From a virus: a stretch of 64,000 nucleotides of DNA. The notes beneath the pieces were generated by a model. The model worked only from the letters and a program-made list of their open reading frames with translations, did no database searches and was not told where the DNA came from. Position 1 is the first letter of the stretch. Each line of letters starts with the position of its first letter. Position numbers and translations under genes: made by a program. The DNA is taken from the IMG/VR virus record IMGVR_UViG_2915168811_000001; one strand, written 5' to 3'. Shown here one piece after another: positions 25,444 to 56,799 of this stretch.

Positions 25444-25802
25444 GCACCAAGGGAAGATTCGACCCGGAGGAAGGCGTCCCGTACGGCCGCTGCCTCAGCT
25501 GCGAAGGCGAAGTGCTGTTCGCCTCCAAGGAGGCCGCCAGTGAGCACATGAGCGCGACGTTCGAGGAGGCGCAGAAGGCCGGCGGGCGAAGCGGTCACCG
25601 AATTTCTGTGCTGAACCAGACGCGGGAGATGCGCATCCAGTCCGAGATCGACGACATCGTAGACAAGGCGATGATCGACGTGATGGACGACGCTCTGCGT
25701 CTGATCGGCGACGCGACCGAGGAGGAAATCACGAAGGCGTTCCGCCATGCAACCGCTGACTTCTCTGACGCCTGGTACGAAGCACTGGAGGAGAACCGAT
25801 GA
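25440..25802 (+). CDS. Hypothetical protein
   Basis: ATGA overlap; CLSC. Confidence 0.65.
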   Translation: MSTKGRFDPEEGVPYGRCLSCEGEVLFASKEAASEHMSATFEEAQKAGGRSGHRISVLNQTREMRIQSEIDDIVDKAMIDVMDDALRLIGDATEEEITKAFRHATADFSDAWYEALEENR

Positions 25803-25966
25803 GCAAACGCAAGCAGCTCGCCGAGGCGAACGCCGTCGTGGCGAAAGCTGCGACCGACTTCATCCGTGAGGTCGAATGCCCGGCGCCGGACCTGGTCTAC
25901 CGGGCGGCATTACGCGACCGTCTGGCGTCCGCGGTGCACGAGCTCGAGGAGGTGCAGCGTGGCTGA
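25799..25966 (+). CDS. Small hypothetical protein (55 aa)
   Basis: GGAGGAG RBS and ATGA overlap; MSKRKQLAEAN... Confidence 0.55.
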   Translation: MSKRKQLAEANAVVAKAATDFIREVECPAPDLVYRAALRDRLASAVHELEEVQRG

Positions 25967-26504
25967 GTCGGCACTCCGCTCGGACGTCCCCGAACCGTGC
26001 GTGATGACGCACACTCCCCCGTTCGACTTCGCGGTGTGCGAGACGCACGACGAGACGTTCCCGGTCGGCGGCGTCTGTAAGTGGCACGGCAGGACGTCGA
26101 TCGCCGATGTGCTGCAGGACGAGGTCGACGCCCAGCGGGCCCGGGCGGTATTCGCAGAGGAGGCCCGCGAGCGCGCCGAGCAAGAACTGCGCGCGGCGCG
26201 GCTGGCGGAAGATGTAGTGATCGCGATGGCGCGTGATGTCATTGCCGGCGCTCGGCTGAACACGCACTATGCCGGGTGCGAGGAGGTCCATGTGGCCTGC
26301 TTTGCCGCGCGAGTGGCGGAGGCGCTCTGCGCGGAACCGGACCTGCGGCCCCACAGCCCAATGCTCCTGCCCGACCAAATCCAGGTGTGCAGCGACTGCG
26401 TGAACTCAGAAGGCCATCTGATTGCGTATGAGCAGGCGCACCCAGTGAGAATGCTGCTGACGGCGCACAGCGACACCGAAGGAGGGCGCGATGGCGTTCA
26501 ATAA
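25959..26504 (+). CDS. Cys/His-rich hypothetical protein
   Basis: GGAGG RBS before GTG. Confidence 0.6.
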   Translation: MAESALRSDVPEPCVMTHTPPFDFAVCETHDETFPVGGVCKWHGRTSIADVLQDEVDAQRARAVFAEEARERAEQELRAARLAEDVVIAMARDVIAGARLNTHYAGCEEVHVACFAARVAEALCAEPDLRPHSPMLLPDQIQVCSDCVNSEGHLIAYEQAHPVRMLLTAHSDTEGGRDGVQ

Positions 26505-33672: not shown

Positions 33673-33765
33673 CACTCCCCCGCGGCGGCGCGCAGCCAGC
33701 ACGGAGGCGCGCCGCCGCGCACAACCACTGGTGAGGCCTCAAAAGCCCGCGATCGAAAGGGACAC

Positions 33766-34050: not shown

Positions 34051-34290
34051 ATGGCGCGATCGACTTTCGTGTCCGGGCACGCCCTCCAATTCGAGGGGGC
34101 CGCGCACGATGAGACTGGACGCAAGATCCCCCGGACCGGGAACTACGGCGACGGCCGAGGCCTGTGCAGCTGCGGCGCACTCTCCCCCAGCGTCGGTTCC
34201 GGCAACAGACGGAAGGCCTGGCATCGCGAGCACAAGGCTACGATCTCCGCCGCACATACTCCAGCACATGAGCGCCCTGATCAGACATAA
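34051..34290 (+). CDS. Small Zn-binding hypothetical protein
   Basis: GGAGG RBS; CSCG...RKAWHREHK. Confidence 0.6.
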   Translation: MARSTFVSGHALQFEGAAHDETGRKIPRTGNYGDGRGLCSCGALSPSVGSGNRRKAWHREHKATISAAHTPAHERPDQT

Positions 34291-35296
34291 AGCCGGAACA
34301 GTCACCGCAGGACAGCAGTCCGGCGGTCGGTTCAAGCAACTCCAGCGTGAAGCCGCCACTGGGCCGGCCGCGCCACGGACGCGGTGGCTTTCCGACGAAG
34401 AGACGCGCTACGCGACCGAACTGATGGAGGAGAGGTTCTACAGCTCCGTCGTTGCGAAGCACGGACGGAGGGCTGACCGCGTACGCGACGACATCATCCA
34501 GGACACCATCATCGACCTCGGGGTGCGAGCGCAGGCGATGGGCATTGAACGGCTGAACAAAAGCCACGCAGGCCTTACCGTTCGGATCATGCAGGCGCGC
34601 GCGATCAGCAACATCTACAGCGAACATCACACCGCCGCCTCAGGGCGCAAAGCCCTGGAGAAGCATCGCCAGGAGTTCGAGGCAAGCCTGGGCAGAGAGC
34701 TTTCCTCAAGCGAAATCTCAGAGCTCGCCGAGGAAGTGCGGCTGAGTTTCGCCCCCGGACGACGCCCTACCGTCGGCTACCACGAGGAGTTCGAGGCCTC
34801 CAGGCTCCACAGGGTGGCCGAGGAAATCGGTGCGAACGCTGCCCGTGCAGGTGTTGCATACCGGGACGTTTACCCGACGGAGATGGACCCCGAGCGCAGC
34901 GAGCATTTAGAGCAAGTGCTCGAGAGTCTGCAAGGTGAAGAGGGCGATGCCGTGTCGAAGAAGTACGCCAAAGAGGCGCTGAAAGAGGCCCGCAGCAACG
35001 TGTGGACGATGCTGCAGTCGGCCACGCCAGGACTTCCGCCTGCCCTGGGCCTGTCGGCCTGGAATGCCCAGAAACAGCGTGCCGCGCTCACCGCCGTCGG
35101 CGGGGCGCACGAGGCAGCCCGGCAATATCTCAGCGGCGCCCTTGACGGGCCCGGCGCCGACGCATTGTTCTCCCCGTTCGGCATTCGTGACGGAAGCGAC
35201 GGGGCTGAAGACCGTGAAGCGGTCGCCCAGAAGCTCGCCGCCACCGGCGATGCGGCCGGCAAAGTGTGGAGTTCAGCGGCTCAGACGCGTCGCTGA
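34268..35296 (+). CDS. Divergent sigma70-like protein (candidate; regions 2 and 3)
   Basis: SVVAKHGRRADRVRDDIIQDTIIDL (region 2-like); RQEFEASLGRELSSSEISELAEE (region 3-like); CATACT 7 nt before ATG. Confidence 0.45.
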   Translation: MSALIRHKAGTVTAGQQSGGRFKQLQREAATGPAAPRTRWLSDEETRYATELMEERFYSSVVAKHGRRADRVRDDIIQDTIIDLGVRAQAMGIERLNKSHAGLTVRIMQARAISNIYSEHHTAASGRKALEKHRQEFEASLGRELSSSEISELAEEVRLSFAPGRRPTVGYHEEFEASRLHRVAEEIGANAARAGVAYRDVYPTEMDPERSEHLEQVLESLQGEEGDAVSKKYAKEALKEARSNVWTMLQSATPGLPPALGLSAWNAQKQRAALTAVGGAHEAARQYLSGALDGPGADALFSPFGIRDGSDGAEDREAVAQKLAATGDAAGKVWSSAAQTRR

Positions 35297-35332
35297 CTCA
35301 ACGGCGGCGCATCGGTTGCTACAGTCAAGCTC

Positions 35333-35680
35333 ATGGCAACGAAACAGACTGTGCAGTTCATCGACGACGTCGACGGTTCAACCATCGACGGCGGCACCGA
35401 CCCCGCTGTGCAGTTTGGGCTCGACGGCCGGGCGTACGAAATCGACCTCACGGATGAGAACGCCGCAGCCCTGCGCAGCACCTTCGCACCGTACATCGCA
35501 GCAGGACGGAAGGCGCAGTCACGCACCAGCGCATCAGCTGCGCCTGCTGCCGCCAAGGATCCTGATCGTGTCGTCCTGCTCGCCGAAGCGCGCGTCTGGG
35601 CTCGCGAGAACGGTCACACCGTGTCGGACCGCGGCCGTATCGCGGCACCGATCATGGACGCATTCCTCGCACAGCGGTAA
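35333..35680 (+). CDS. lsr2: Lsr2 nucleoid-associated protein
   Basis: DDVDGS, FGLDGRAYEIDL, RVWARENG..VSDRGRI; TGC-TACAGT extended -10, leaderless. Confidence 0.93.
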   Translation: MATKQTVQFIDDVDGSTIDGGTDPAVQFGLDGRAYEIDLTDENAAALRSTFAPYIAAGRKAQSRTSASAAPAAAKDPDRVVLLAEARVWARENGHTVSDRGRIAAPIMDAFLAQR

Positions 35681-35914: not shown

Positions 35915-35969
35915 CTCAGCCGCGCATCACTGCCTTCGAGGTCGGACGCTCCGGCCGCGAGAGGTGGCC

Positions 35970-38741: not shown

Positions 38742-39833
38742 TCACCCCGACACCGTCGTAGGCGTGGACAGCTGCCGTTCCGCACGTGCCCGCAAGATCT
38801 TTCCGTAGAGGGTCATTCCGTCCCAATCGACGACCTCGTCACCGGAGTCGTCGGTCGCGACAGGAACCATAATTCGTTGGCGTCCTAGCCGATGGAGAGT
38901 CAACTTGTATCCGAATCCGAACTTCGGGACGCACTGTTGCGTAAGCATTGTGACCAACATGAGGAGCGCCTCCTCAGTGGCATTCTCCGCAGCTGGCTCG
39001 AGCACCGTTACATCATCGGAGGCGTTGAACGGCATCGGCTGGTACTTGGCGTGGCCGGTACCACCGTCACCGTTATAGATCAGCGAAACCCAGCCGCCGG
39101 GGAACAGCGCGGGGACGTCAGCAAGGCCTACGATGCTGTTATTGACCCGGGAGCCTGCAACGAAGGGCATCCGGCCCGGTTTGCGATGGGCCGCGATCAA
39201 GCGTTTCCCCTTATGAGCGTGGAAGATGCCGCGCTGCTGACGAGGCAAGTCGATGACGAACATCGGTGCAAACCTCAGATCCGGGAGGTCTGTGTCGGCA
39301 ACGACGTCATCAGACGTGCGGGCGCTGTTTGCGCGAGTGACTGCGCGGGCAGTCAGTTCTTCACCGAGCCGCGTCATGCCCTCCCAGTCCACGACCCGGT
39401 CGCCGAAGTCGTCGGTCGTCACGGGGACCATGATCCGGGTCTTCACGAGACGTGCCATGGAGACGCCATACCCCCACGAGAACTTCTGCATGGCCCTGCG
39501 CATGATCGTCGTCAAGAGTAAGCCGGAGTGAGCGTTCAGCAGCTTATGGCGAAAGATCAAGAAGTTCTGCGCCGTGTAGAAGGATACCGGCTGGTAGAAA
39601 GTCGCCTGGGTCTTGAGGGTAACGGTGATGCAGTTACCAGCTTCACGGATAACACCCTGATCAGCGACAATCGCGGCAATGCTGTTCGCCGAATGCGTCT
39701 GACTGAGATACGGAACTTTCGGTTCACCACTCTTGAGGTGAACCTTGTCAAACCAGGCCGACGACGACTTCATCGTGTCGAAGACATCTGTGATCAGCAT
39801 CGGGGCGAACGTCAGATCATCATACGCACTCAT
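38742..39833 (-). CDS. R-M specificity subunit (BcgIB/HsdS-like)
   Basis: Two repeated TRD halves, each ending KFxxGY...IMVPV.TDD.GD.VVDW.GM. Confidence 0.85.
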   Translation of the reverse strand: MSAYDDLTFAPMLITDVFDTMKSSSAWFDKVHLKSGEPKVPYLSQTHSANSIAAIVADQGVIREAGNCITVTLKTQATFYQPVSFYTAQNFLIFRHKLLNAHSGLLLTTIMRRAMQKFSWGYGVSMARLVKTRIMVPVTTDDFGDRVVDWEGMTRLGEELTARAVTRANSARTSDDVVADTDLPDLRFAPMFVIDLPRQQRGIFHAHKGKRLIAAHRKPGRMPFVAGSRVNNSIVGLADVPALFPGGWVSLIYNGDGGTGHAKYQPMPFNASDDVTVLEPAAENATEEALLMLVTMLTQQCVPKFGFGYKLTLHRLGRQRIMVPVATDDSGDEVVDWDGMTLYGKILRARAERQLSTPTTVSG

Positions 39834-41836
39834 GCGTCATCACCGACCTCGAATCCCGTGCCCTTGTTATGCACCGGTGTAATGAGGGCACCATAACCAT
39901 GGGTGTGCATGTCGACCTGCCAGGTGATGTAGTCCGCCACCGTGGTGTAGAAGTCGTCGTAGGTCGGCGGCTGGTCGTTGAAATAGAAGTAGCTGTGCTG
40001 CCACTCGTCGGTCGCAATGATCTCTGAACGCACCACAAACGATGTGTCATCGGGCACGCCGTCCCGGAGGACCTCAAGCAGATGCTTGCGCCGATCGGCA
40101 GCGCGCCCGTCGTCGACCAGGCCGACGTGTTGGCGGACCTTGTAACCATCGTCTTTGAAGTCCACGAAGGCAGTCTTCTTCGTCTCGGGGTGGGGTACCC
40201 CCGCTGTGAAGAGCGCAATGACTGCATGAGTACCGATGCCGTGGAACGTGTCCGGATTCATCGTTAAGACGGCATCAAGCGTGTGATGCTTGAGAATCTT
40301 CGCCTTGAGGGCCTTATCAACCTTGTTCTTCCCGACCATGGCAGACTGCGGGACGATCGCGGCGAGGCGGCCCCGAACTTCCAGCTGAGACAGCGCCCGC
40401 TCAAGGAAGGACAGTTCGGACAGGTGCCAGGTGGTCGGGTCCTTCGCCTGCGAATACGGCGGGTTCATGAGCACCTTCGTGAATCCCTCCAGACGACCAG
40501 GGCGCTCGGGGTTGTACGGGAAGAAATCGTCCCGTGTGGTGTCGAAGAAGCTCCTGCGCTGGAAATTCGCCTTTCCGTCACCGCGCAGGATCATATTCGT
40601 AGTGCCGACAGCGAAGAGTTTGTCCTGGAGTTCGACGCCATGCAGCTGGAACCTTTTGATCTCGTCGAGGCGTTCAGCGAGGCGAGTGGGGTCGCCACCA
40701 TACCGCGTAGTTGCGTCGGCGAACATGCGGCGCATCGCAGCGATTAGGAACGCCCCAGAGCCTGCGGTCGGATCGAGCACCACGTCGTCACTGTTCACGT
40801 CGATCAGCTCGGCCATAAGGTCCGTGATGTGGTGCGGTGTGAGCACGATACCCAGCGAGTTTCCGTCGGAGCCGCCGTACTTCACGAACTCACCGTAGAA
40901 GTTTCCCAGCACGTCGAACGCCGAGTGGGAGGGAGACGATACGACCTCGAAGACCTCATGATCGAGGATCTCCGTGAAGTGCTGGAGCGGTGTCTTCCCG
41001 AGATCGCGGTTCCGCTGGTTCAGCAACACGTGACGCTTGATGAAGGCGAAGCGATCGAGCATGATCCCGATCTTCTGCTTCGGCCCAAGGTCGGCCTCGG
41101 GGCTCTCCAGGAACTCCTTCGCGGCGTTGTAGACTTTCTCGCCGTCCCGGTATCCGTTGCGCTGGTCACCGGCGAGGTCGGCGAGCAGTTCGGGGCGGTA
41201 CTTGAGCGCCAGCAGGATCGCAGAGACCAGCGTCGCCTTGTTCTCGTTCTCCAACGAGGCGTAGTTGCGCATACCCTCGTGAAGATTTGCCGCCACCTTG
41301 CGAATCTCACGGACCTCGCGCTCCTCGCGAGGTAGCTCACCGAGCACGGCGACGCGGTAGTACTCGTTGATGTTCTCCGCCGCGAACGGTGTGAGCGTCT
41401 CCAGCCCGTCCAACACCCTGGACTCCGTCCGAGGAGCGACGAAAGCAATCGACATGTCGTAGTGACTCTCGGTACCGGCGACACCCACCGCGAAAACCTT
41501 CTTGCCGGTCCTATCAGCGAAGGTCTTCGCATAGTGCACGGCACCGTTCAGTGCGTATTTGACGCGCGCAGGAGGATCAAGTGCTATGCGGCCCTCCTCG
41601 TCGAGCATGACAGAGTCCTCGAACCGAGCCTTGTCCTCCACAACCACGATGAACTCGCCCGACTCAATGACGAACTCGGGCTTGCCTCGACCAGAACCAT
41701 CGGACTTGGATGCGCCTTCGAGGGCCTCGTAGATGTAGGCGGGAGCGTCGGAGCAGCTCTGCTCCCACGGTCTGGGGTAGCCGATCTCACGCAACATGTC
41801 GCGTACGAACTGGTCGGTGCTTCTCTCGTTCCCCAT
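39830..41836 (-). CDS. Type IIB/IIG restriction-methylase subunit (BcgIA-like)
   Basis: N-terminal GKPEF...VEDK nuclease motif; LDPTAGSGAF; MNPPY. Confidence 0.88.
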   Translation of the reverse strand: MGNERSTDQFVRDMLREIGYPRPWEQSCSDAPAYIYEALEGASKSDGSGRGKPEFVIESGEFIVVVEDKARFEDSVMLDEEGRIALDPPARVKYALNGAVHYAKTFADRTGKKVFAVGVAGTESHYDMSIAFVAPRTESRVLDGLETLTPFAAENINEYYRVAVLGELPREEREVREIRKVAANLHEGMRNYASLENENKATLVSAILLALKYRPELLADLAGDQRNGYRDGEKVYNAAKEFLESPEADLGPKQKIGIMLDRFAFIKRHVLLNQRNRDLGKTPLQHFTEILDHEVFEVVSSPSHSAFDVLGNFYGEFVKYGGSDGNSLGIVLTPHHITDLMAELIDVNSDDVVLDPTAGSGAFLIAAMRRMFADATTRYGGDPTRLAERLDEIKRFQLHGVELQDKLFAVGTTNMILRGDGKANFQRRSFFDTTRDDFFPYNPERPGRLEGFTKVLMNPPYSQAKDPTTWHLSELSFLERALSQLEVRGRLAAIVPQSAMVGKNKVDKALKAKILKHHTLDAVLTMNPDTFHGIGTHAVIALFTAGVPHPETKKTAFVDFKDDGYKVRQHVGLVDDGRAADRRKHLLEVLRDGVPDDTSFVVRSEIIATDEWQHSYFYFNDQPPTYDDFYTTVADYITWQVDMHTHGYGALITPVHNKGTGFEVGDDA

Positions 41837-42049
41837 GGGCAACACTCTCACTCACTGATTGCATCAAATATCTAACAATGACAGTACTTGACTACGCATG
41901 CTCGGAGCTAAAGCAACGCGCTGGAAGATGCCCCGCACAGCGGGGCCGGGAGCCTCCACGAGAGCGGCGACGTGGCGTAAGTGCGTCGATTCACCGAGCA
42001 CGACTGCCTGTCGCGCCAGCCGCTCTCCCAGACCTCGGAAGAGACCGCC

Positions 42050-55690: not shown

Positions 55691-56799
55691 ACACCAAGCG
55701 CGGAGTTATGAGCCTCGAAACCCTCGAGCGCAGCCTCCACTTCCTCGACCTCACCGGCATCACCGACCCCGGGCAGGTCGAAATCCGCCGTCTGTACCTG
55801 CAGATCGCGAACGGATCCGTACCGGCCGGACCAGTCCTTGCGGGGCTCGAAACCGTCGCTGGCGGGGAGCTCGCTGTGGGGACCCTGCCGATCCGCACCG
55901 ACCCGCGCACCCTCGTACACCGGTTCGACTGGCAATGGTGGAGCAACTGCGCCGCGCTCGAAAGATTCGTCGCGGAGCATGGGCGGCTCCCAAGCACAGT
56001 GTCCGCCGACCCTGAAGAGAAGCGGCTGGGCTTTTGGGTGCAGACCCAGAGGAATTCAATAGCCGGGAGGGGTACGCCGTTGATCGCAGACCAGGTCGCC
56101 CGGCTCGTACTCGTTCCTGGGTTCGTTGTAGACCGTGCGCCGACATGGGGTGATCGCTTCGCGGCGCTCGAAAGGTTCGTCGCGGTGCACGGGCGGACCC
56201 CAAGCAAGGTGTCAGCTGACCCGGAGGAGAAGCGGCTGGGCGTCTGGGCGAACAAACAGAGGAGTTCAATCGCCGGCAGGGGTACGCCGTTGACCGCGGA
56301 GCAGGTCGCCCGGCTTGTGCTCATCCCCGGGTTCGTTACGGACCGCGCACCGACATGGGGTGAAAGCTGCGCAGCTGTCGAGTTGTTTGTCGCGGAGCAC
56401 GGCCGGGTCCCAAGTACGGTGTCTACGGACCCGGAAGTAAGACGGCTGGGCGGCTGGGTGCAGACTCAGAAAAGCAGGATCGCGGGCAGAGGGGCAGCGC
56501 TGAGCCCGGATCAGGTCGCCAGGCTCGAGCTCATTCCTGGTTTCGCTACAGACCGTGCTCTGATATGGCTCGAAAGCATCGCCGCGGTCGAGACGTTCGT
56601 TACTGCACAAGGTCGGCTCCCGCAGCAGAAGGCCACTGGTCCGGAAGAGAAGCGGCTGGGCGGCTGGGTGGACAACCAGAAAAGGTCAATCGCAGGCAGA
56701 GGTGGGACGTTGACCGCAGATCAGGTCGCCCGGCTCGTACTCATCCCTGGGTTCGTTACGCCAGTTGTCCGCCGCCACTTGGACGGCAAGCAGGGGTGA
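55687..56799 (+). CDS. Helicase-associated (HA) repeat protein
   Basis: Four 70-aa repeats FVAEHGR.PS...EEKRLG.WV..Q. Confidence 0.85.
   Translation: MNTKRGVMSLETLERSLHFLDLTGITDPGQVEIRRLYLQIANGSVPAGPVLAGLETVAGGELAVGTLPIRTDPRTLVHRFDWQWWSNCAALERFVAEHGRLPSTVSADPEEKRLGFWVQTQRNSIAGRGTPLIADQVARLVLVPGFVVDRAPTWGDRFAALERFVAVHGRTPSKVSADPEEKRLGVWANKQRSSIAGRGTPLTAEQVARLVLIPGFVTDRAPTWGESCAAVELFVAEHGRVPSTVSTDPEVRRLGGWVQTQKSRIAGRGAALSPDQVARLELIPGFATDRALIWLESIAAVETFVTAQGRLPQQKATGPEEKRLGGWVDNQKRSIAGRGGTLTADQVARLVLIPGFVTPVVRRHLDGKQG
55935..56760 (+). repeat. Four tandem 210-bp intragenic repeats
   Basis: Related GAAGAGAAGCGGCTGGG-like segments at 56014, 56224, 56434, 56644. Confidence 0.9.

What the first reader, a model, noticed from the sequence alone, without database searches (positions are those of the whole stretch)
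34250..35296. Candidate cognate factor: divergent sigma70-like protein with regions 2 and 3 but no region 4
Seen: SVVAKHGRRADRVRDDIIQDTIIDL resembles sigma region 2.1-2.2 (xxDLxQExxxxL) and RQEFEASLGRELSSSEISELAEE resembles region 3 (LGREPTxEELA); I see no region-4 HTH at the C-terminus. Established: regions 2/3 read the -10 and extended -10, region 4 reads the -35, and region-4-less phage sigmas such as T4 gp55 use -10-only promoters. Inference: this fits a repeat with one 12-bp conserved block and no -35. The gene appears leaderless behind a host-type CATACT (34255-34260, in the context CCGCACATACT, itself motif-like), which would give a cascade of host SigA, then this factor, then ~36 promoters.
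Basis: inference. Interest (0 to 1): 0.82.

Follow-up and report, generated by a model that had tools for sequence, protein, structure and literature searches.

The report
Tagged plasmid sigma lacking region 4
A giant actinobacterial plasmid encodes a real but unannotated relative of bacterial sigma factors, with an unknown domain in place of the usual -35-reading part; it probably lets the plasmid run its own promoters on the host RNA polymerase, but which promoter set it switches on is still open.

Summary
The 342-aa gene (34268-35296) is a real sigma70-family derivative. Its 131-member family profile hits almost only sigma factors (regions 2, 3, 3.2). No member hits region 4; a confidently folded, unassigned C-terminal domain sits there instead. 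The family is a core gene of 375-608 kb Micrococcales megaplasmids (8 of 8 in PLSDB), each with CCG(C/T)(A/G)CA-type private promoters. The proposed host-SigA start is not supported. The leader is the plasmid's own -35-less, leaderless promoter class (best of 1273 window starts), shared with 33-50 proteins per plasmid that carry the same N-terminal tag; 0 of 56 such leaders have TANNNT. The cognate link to the ~34 CCGCGCATCACT sites is unproven. All eight plasmids also encode a complete sigma, and in three Micrococcaceae plasmids the equivalent promoter class has a -35 box (76-84%) that tagged promoters lack (0-10%). This copy is non-syntenic, long-branched and probably a second paralog. The scan noted this family before on another genome (e1-5629263).

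The parts
34268..35296 (+). Gene for the 342-aa sigma-like protein (P0001), leaderless
34249..34260 (+). Own promoter core GCCGCACATACT: the -35-less, leaderless 'tagged-gene' (T) class, 19 nt before the ATG
   Evidence: 11.3 bits, best of 1273 starts, next 5.7, with a matrix trained on pACHL01 and D40 only; orthologous leaders
34280..34393 (+). N-terminal tag (residues ~5-42; R...G..GGxF), low-confidence in the model, shared with 33-50 unrelated proteins per plasmid
34382..34621 (+). Sigma domain 2 (residues 39-118) with the core-binding D75, Q78, D79 motif; no aromatic residue in 92-116
34622..34783 (+). Sigma domain 3 (residues 119-172): region 3.0 helix, LGREL..SE..LA, then a family-specific RxSxxPGRRP loop
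34784..34876 (+). Region 3.2-like linker; the family's SLD motif (62 of 127 members) is lost in this copy
34877..35293 (+). Conserved all-helical C-terminal domain (residues 204-342) in place of region 4; unassigned fold
   Evidence: (pLDDT 89.1, pTM 0.77)
33715..33726 (+). Degenerate copy of the abundant repeat with hairpin and RBS, heading the two small genes upstream; could read through into the sigma-like gene (inference)
34051..34290 (+). 79-aa ORF with a CxC/H motif overlapping the promoter and first 23 nt of the gene
35920..35931 (+). Nearest exact copy of the abundant CCGCGCATCACT ('G' class) promoter-like repeat; 34 copies with <=1 mismatch across the window, most with a start codon 49-56 nt from the first base
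35317..35325 (+). Contrast: TG-N-TACAGT, a canonical SigA extended -10, 7 nt before the lsr2 ATG (35333)

Best explanation
The gene encodes a plasmid-specific sigma factor. Shown: sigma2-sigma3 homology with the core-binding motif, no detectable region 4, a new C-terminal domain, a tag shared with dozens of plasmid proteins, and membership of the -35-less leaderless 'tagged-gene' promoter class. Inferred: it binds host RNA polymerase through sigma2, reads the GC-rich box at about -18 to -9 through regions 2.4/3.0, and needs no -35. Its most likely targets are the -35-less tagged-gene promoters, including its own (positive feedback, as for SigN). The abundant CCGCGCATCACT class is then read mainly by the element's complete sigma. 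Because this window's repeat shares the CCGC(G/A)CAT core and spacing and has no -35, cross-reading by this second paralog is possible.
For: Sigma homology. Core motif [DE]xx[QG][DE] in 89 of 127 members. One full copy per complete plasmid, in all 8 PLSDB plasmids. In pPA-B-2242, pACHL01 and pYJN5-1 the same core has a -35 box (G-37 and A-33) before 117/153, 136/162 and 101/124 untagged genes but only 3/30, 3/30 and 0/20 tagged genes (Fisher p <= 7e-12); a region-4-less factor fits the class without -35. By orthologous genes, that -35 class corresponds to the Curtobacterium CCGCGCATA class and, on two genes, to this window's repeat. The tagged-class box is respelled per element and shared between the sigma gene and another tagged gene (L064, L002, L063), and the most deviant box goes with a deviant region 3.0 (P0008; anecdotal). 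Autoregulation is a precedent in SigN (PMC6751061).
Against: No binding or transcription data. Regions 2.3-3.0 are only 11-22% identical between Micrococcaceae and Curtobacterium orthologues, although their tagged-class box is nearly the same. The window's repeat has no -35, so the -35 argument does not apply directly here. The C-terminal domain could itself read a -35 box, as the non-homologous domain of sigma-I is thought to (PMC10575876). This copy is long-branched and has lost the SLD linker motif. Kinship confounds all co-variation.
Confidence: 0.45

Rival explanations
1. One reading: the protein reads the abundant CCGCGCATCACT class. It is made from a tagged-class promoter by another plasmid factor, and the tag carries it into the recipient during transfer, where it fires the accessory genes (nucleotide metabolism, ADP-ribose erasers). 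In Micrococcaceae its C-terminal domain would read the -35 box, as in sigma-I.
For: The window repeat has 12 informative bases and no -35, and shares the core and start spacing with the gene's own box. The abundant class differs between host families, as do the factor's regions 2.3-3.0. This copy sits among repeat-led accessory genes, outside the conserved operon. Best, weak, fold match of the C-terminal domain is a helical part of the DNA-binding enzyme BsoBI (Z 4.8). Proteins delivered with DNA to jump-start transcription are a proposed theme (PMC5512222).
Against: A complete sigma with a C-terminal HTH is present in all 8 plasmids and is the simpler reader of a class with a -35 box. Translocation by the tag is untested.
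Confidence: 0.3
2. This copy is a degenerate or repurposed paralog: it binds core RNA polymerase as a competitor or decoy, or has lost function, while the syntenic paralog (probably P0004) is the working factor.
For: Long end branch (1.33 against a median of 0.83, quick tree). Not in the conserved gene order seen at ten other loci. Lost the SLD motif, and several family-consensus positions are changed. A second family member lies on a contig of identical length, 217,787 bp.
Against: Intact frame, tag and promoter box; the near-invariant residues M1, G20, E149, A154, R158, R166, P167, W246, P257, G279 and P303 are all kept. Its close relatives in syntenic position also lack SLD.
Confidence: 0.15
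3. The protein is not a stand-alone sigma but one part of a split or assisted system: it needs a separate plasmid protein that plays the part of region 4 (as gp33 does for T4 gp55), or it acts as an activator beside a host sigma.
For: Few aromatic residues in region 2.3 (46 of 127 members have none), and the boxes are GC-rich, so melting may need help. T4 gp33 clamps the beta-flap tip like region 4 without structural relation (PMC7892883). Conserved unknown genes follow the syntenic copy.
Against: The C-terminal domain is in the right place to serve that role in cis.
Confidence: 0.1

Closest known systems
SigN (ZpdN) of Bacillus subtilis plasmid pBS32 (PMC6751061)
   Same: Plasmid-encoded divergent sigma with a plasmid-restricted regulon that includes nucleotide-metabolism and replication genes; activates its own promoter.
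   Different: SigN is ECF-like with -35 and -10 elements and is started by a LexA-repressed SigA promoter. Here there is sigma3, no region 4, a new C-terminal domain, an N-terminal tag, and no conserved SigA promoter.
T4 gp55 with gp33 (PMC7892883)
   Same: Mobile-element sigma2 homologue for promoters with only a -10-like element.
   Different: gp55 has a sigma2 homology domain plus an HLH motif and a clamp-binding tail, and works with gp33 and gp45. This family keeps sigma3 and, in half the members, a 3.2 linker; it has a 120-140-aa C-terminal domain, reads GC-rich boxes (inferred), and was not found in 50,697 phage records.
Sigma-I (SigI) of Bacilli and Clostridia (PMC10575876)
   Same: Sigma2 plus a C-terminal domain without sequence homology to sigma4.
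   Different: SigI promoters have an A-tract -35 element and SigI has RsgI anti-sigmas. Here sigma3 is present, no anti-sigma was seen, and no likeness of the C-terminal domains was found (not excluded).
Group 3 and ECF (group 4) sigma70 factors (SigB/FliA; SigE, ShbA, CnrH)
   Same: Best sequence and fold matches for domain 2; SigB and sigma32 align over domains 2-3.
   Different: Both groups are defined by a sigma4 domain, not detected here by sequence.

Membership tests
sigma70 family | Domain 2 with the region 2.1/2.2 core-binding motif | tested here: met
   fold support Z 7.6, middling for a helical bundle
sigma70 family | Binds core RNA polymerase and directs initiation | not testable with these tools
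Group 3 sigma70 | Domain 3 (regions 3.0-3.2) | tested here: met
   5 of 127 members hit Sigma70_r3; profile aligns to SigA regions 3.0, 3.1 and 3.2; SLD motif lost in this copy
Group 3 / ECF sigma70 | Region 4 detectable by sequence (Sigma70_r4, r4_2 or other HTH profiles) | tested here: not met
   0 of 127 full-length members at E<=0.05; none among the 25 families listed (of 28) for 124 C-terminal parts at E<=0.1; no sigma hit in PDB for the domain profile
Group 3 / ECF sigma70 | C-terminal domain has the sigma4 fold | tested here: inconclusive
   confident model; searches gave no Z>=5 and no significant match, which does not exclude a distant fold
ECF sigma70 | Absence of domain 3 | tested here: not met
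   domain 3 present
Sigma-I | SigI-type C-terminal domain | tested here: inconclusive
   only a weak hit to SigI1 domain 2 (E 2.5); C-terminal searches uninformative
Sigma-I | A-tract -35 promoter element | tested here: not met
   no A-tract in any promoter class
T4 gp55 | Phage late-gene context with gp33 and sliding clamp | tested here: inconclusive
   no PHROG or phage hit; TerL PF03354 absent from 5 plasmids (one family only); gp33 not searched

The most novel reading that the evidence does not exclude
A new group of sigma factors (tag, sigma2, sigma3, new domain) that giant actinobacterial plasmids export with their DNA into the recipient by an N-terminal address tag, where it reprograms host RNA polymerase to the plasmid's private early promoters; a multi-sigma, phage-like transcription cascade on a conjugative element.
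Probability: 0.2. Interest if true: 0.88.

Novelty: new variant of a known kind. Interest (0 to 1): 0.68.

Why it matters
It is an unannotated sigma70 architecture that does not fit groups 1-4 or sigma-I, conserved as a core gene of giant plasmids in cultured soil and plant actinobacteria (pACHL01, pYJN5-1, Curtobacterium D40). These plasmids appear to put 100-200 genes under private promoters with at least two own sigma-like factors, so they may control transcription much as large phages do. That would explain why their genes are silent or active independently of the host and offers orthogonal sigma/promoter pairs for Actinobacteria. The natural split between -35-containing and -35-less promoters with an identical core makes the role of region 4 and of the new domain directly testable. 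I found no paper on the family in the held library, which omits most subscription journals.

Tried and rejected
Host-SigA promoter for the gene: rejected. Phage origin: no hit in phage records with two queries, one IMG/VR fragment only, no TerL in 5 plasmids. Single-sequence Pfam/PHROG scans were uninformative. Foldseek of the full model gave no E<=0.001, though most top rows were sigma factors. The C-terminal domain gave no clear fold match in three libraries, and no sigma4 chain was listed; this does not show that the fold is new. A -35 element for the window repeat was not found in fixed register or as enriched words. Co-variation between factors and motifs did not separate the models. Words such as GATCGGCTAC, GATACCCAC and TTCATGCATG are palindromic or clustered repeats, not promoters. 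Not available: whole genome, DNA around P0004, complex prediction, sequencing runs. GTDB scans gave one short MAG contig. The tree is the quick version; the careful search did not finish.

Full report
Observation. The gene runs from ATG 34268 to 35296 and encodes 342 aa. It lies in a run of + strand accessory genes, before lsr2. The dispersed word CCGCGCATCACT is real: 23 exact copies, all on the + strand, 34 with at most one mismatch; the 10-mer core occurs 28 times against 0.8 expected. Most copies are followed by a hairpin, a ribosome-binding site and a start 49-56 nt from the first base. There is no information between -45 and -20.

Is it a sigma? Alone, the protein hits no sigma model. 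An exhaustive search found 131 family members. Of 127 aligned, 28 hit Sigma70_r2, 5 hit r3 and none hit r4. The profile retrieves 27 PDB sequences, 26 of them sigma factors, with a SigA aligned over regions 2-3.1 and 3.2. In the model (pLDDT 80.9), residues 39-118 match ShbA (Z 7.6) and SigE (Z 7.2) best, and SigB over 36-178; a non-sigma bundle is tied, so the fold evidence is supportive only. D75, Q78 and D79 match the core-binding motif (89 of 127 members). Region 2.3 is poor in aromatic residues. Residues 204-342 form a conserved helical domain (pLDDT 89.1, pTM 0.77) with no region-4 profile hit and no clear fold match. So region 4 is replaced rather than simply missing.

Where it lives. 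The contig is 217,787 bp. A second family member, P0004 of Leucobacter sp. cx-169, lies on a contig of the same length, so host and paralogy are inferred, not shown. The family is on eight PLSDB plasmids of 375-608 kb from Pseudarthrobacter, Paenarthrobacter, Arthrobacter and Curtobacterium, one full copy in each of three scanned, on Lysinibacter and Leucobacter contigs, and in a Rathayibacter chromosome. No phage record matched. Neighbours include a VirB4-like AAA_10 ATPase, FtsK and CHAP genes, which suggests a conjugative element, although MOB-suite finds no known relaxase. At ten loci the gene heads a conserved block ending in about 150, 1000 and 225 aa genes. The window copy is outside that block and has a long branch within a Leucobacter-like clade (quick tree).

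The tag. The first 40 residues carry a motif shared with 33-50 unrelated proteins per plasmid. In pACHL01 31 of 50 and in D40 25 of 33 tagged genes have a GCCGCRCACA-type box at -18 to -9 from the start codon, which implies leaderless transcripts. The tag's role is unknown; delivery with the DNA is an inference.

The gene's promoter. A matrix trained only on those two plasmids scores the window gene at 11.3 bits, first of 1273 candidate starts, the next at 5.7. Orthologues carry the same box, respelled per element and shared with other tagged genes of that element. None of 56 tagged leaders has TANNNT, and CATACT occurs only in this copy among 8 sigma-gene leaders tested. The adjacent lsr2 gene does have a canonical extended -10. 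The host-SigA step of the proposed cascade is therefore not supported.

Which class does it read? Whole plasmids show related words: CCGYACACA 144-192 times in three Micrococcaceae plasmids, CCGCGCATA 89-105 times in two Curtobacterium plasmids (two plasmids read over 400 kb only). In the Micrococcaceae plasmids the core is the same for tagged and untagged genes, but a -35 box (G-37, A-33) precedes 76-84% of untagged and 0-10% of tagged sites (p <= 7e-12). Orthologous genes link this -35 class to the Curtobacterium class (4-6 genes per comparison) and, on very few genes, to the window repeat; tagged maps to tagged. All eight plasmids also encode a complete divergent sigma with a C-terminal HTH, related to this family over regions 2-3. 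The simplest pairing is complete sigma to the abundant class and region-4-less sigma to the -35-less tagged class, with autoregulation as in SigN (PMC6751061). Against it: the window repeat itself lacks a -35, shares core and spacing with the gene's own box, the factor's recognition regions are poorly conserved where the tagged box is constant, and sigma-I shows that a non-homologous domain can stand in for region 4 (PMC10575876). I put 0.45 on the tagged class, 0.3 on the repeat, 0.15 on a decoy or decayed paralog and 0.1 on an assisted system.

Comparison and novelty. It works like SigN or T4 gp55: an element-encoded factor that redirects host polymerase to private promoters (inferred). It is a sigma70-family derivative but not a member of group 3, ECF, sigma-I or gp55 as defined. 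I found no paper on it in the held library. The scan has noted the same kind of protein on another genome (e1-5629263) and the promoter classes and tag several times; those are unchecked notes, not support. New here are the -35 split between tagged and untagged promoters, the class correspondence across hosts, and the non-syntenic status of this copy.

Noticed in passing
window 35317-35680: lsr2 gene, apparently leaderless behind a canonical SigA extended -10 (TG-N-TACAGT), unlike its neighbours on private promoters.
   Followed up: partly
pACHL01, pPA-B-2242, pYJN5-1 (W03, W01, W05), whole: A third promoter-like class, TCTACGCATG, 25-33 copies each; one copy precedes the orthologue of a D40 flagellar FliI-type ATPase gene. 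No orthologous gene carries the Curtobacterium abundant class.
   Followed up: partly
W03:378959-379630, W01:186273-186938, W05:47289-47501: The three Micrococcaceae plasmids also encode a strongly canonical sigma70 (r2 E ~1e-25; r4 found in the two tested), about 1000 aa in two of them; another candidate reader for the -35 class.
   Followed up: no
L057 (D40 565000-585000): The Curtobacterium plasmid carries a flagellar gene cluster with its own FliA-like sigma.
   Followed up: no
L072, L073, L070, L071: Curtobacterium plasmids hold extra paralogs of the complete sigma, one lacking most of region 3.
   Followed up: no
The first gene's C-terminal half is the most conserved segment tested across hosts (43-47%).
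   Followed up: partly
L006:20992-21411 and 25483-26193: Genes of the conserved block behind the sigma-like gene also carry the N-terminal tag.
   Followed up: no
window 55947-56757: 210-nt tandem coding repeat, 3-4 copies, in a 387-aa ORF.
   Followed up: no
window 38742-41851: Minus-strand methylase and specificity-like genes at lower GC, within a region flanked by split halves of an ORF (also noted by the first stage).
   Followed up: no
W01, W02, W04: Clustered or palindromic repeats (TTCATGCATG, GATCGGCTAC, GATACCCAC), possibly iterons or partition sites.
   Followed up: no
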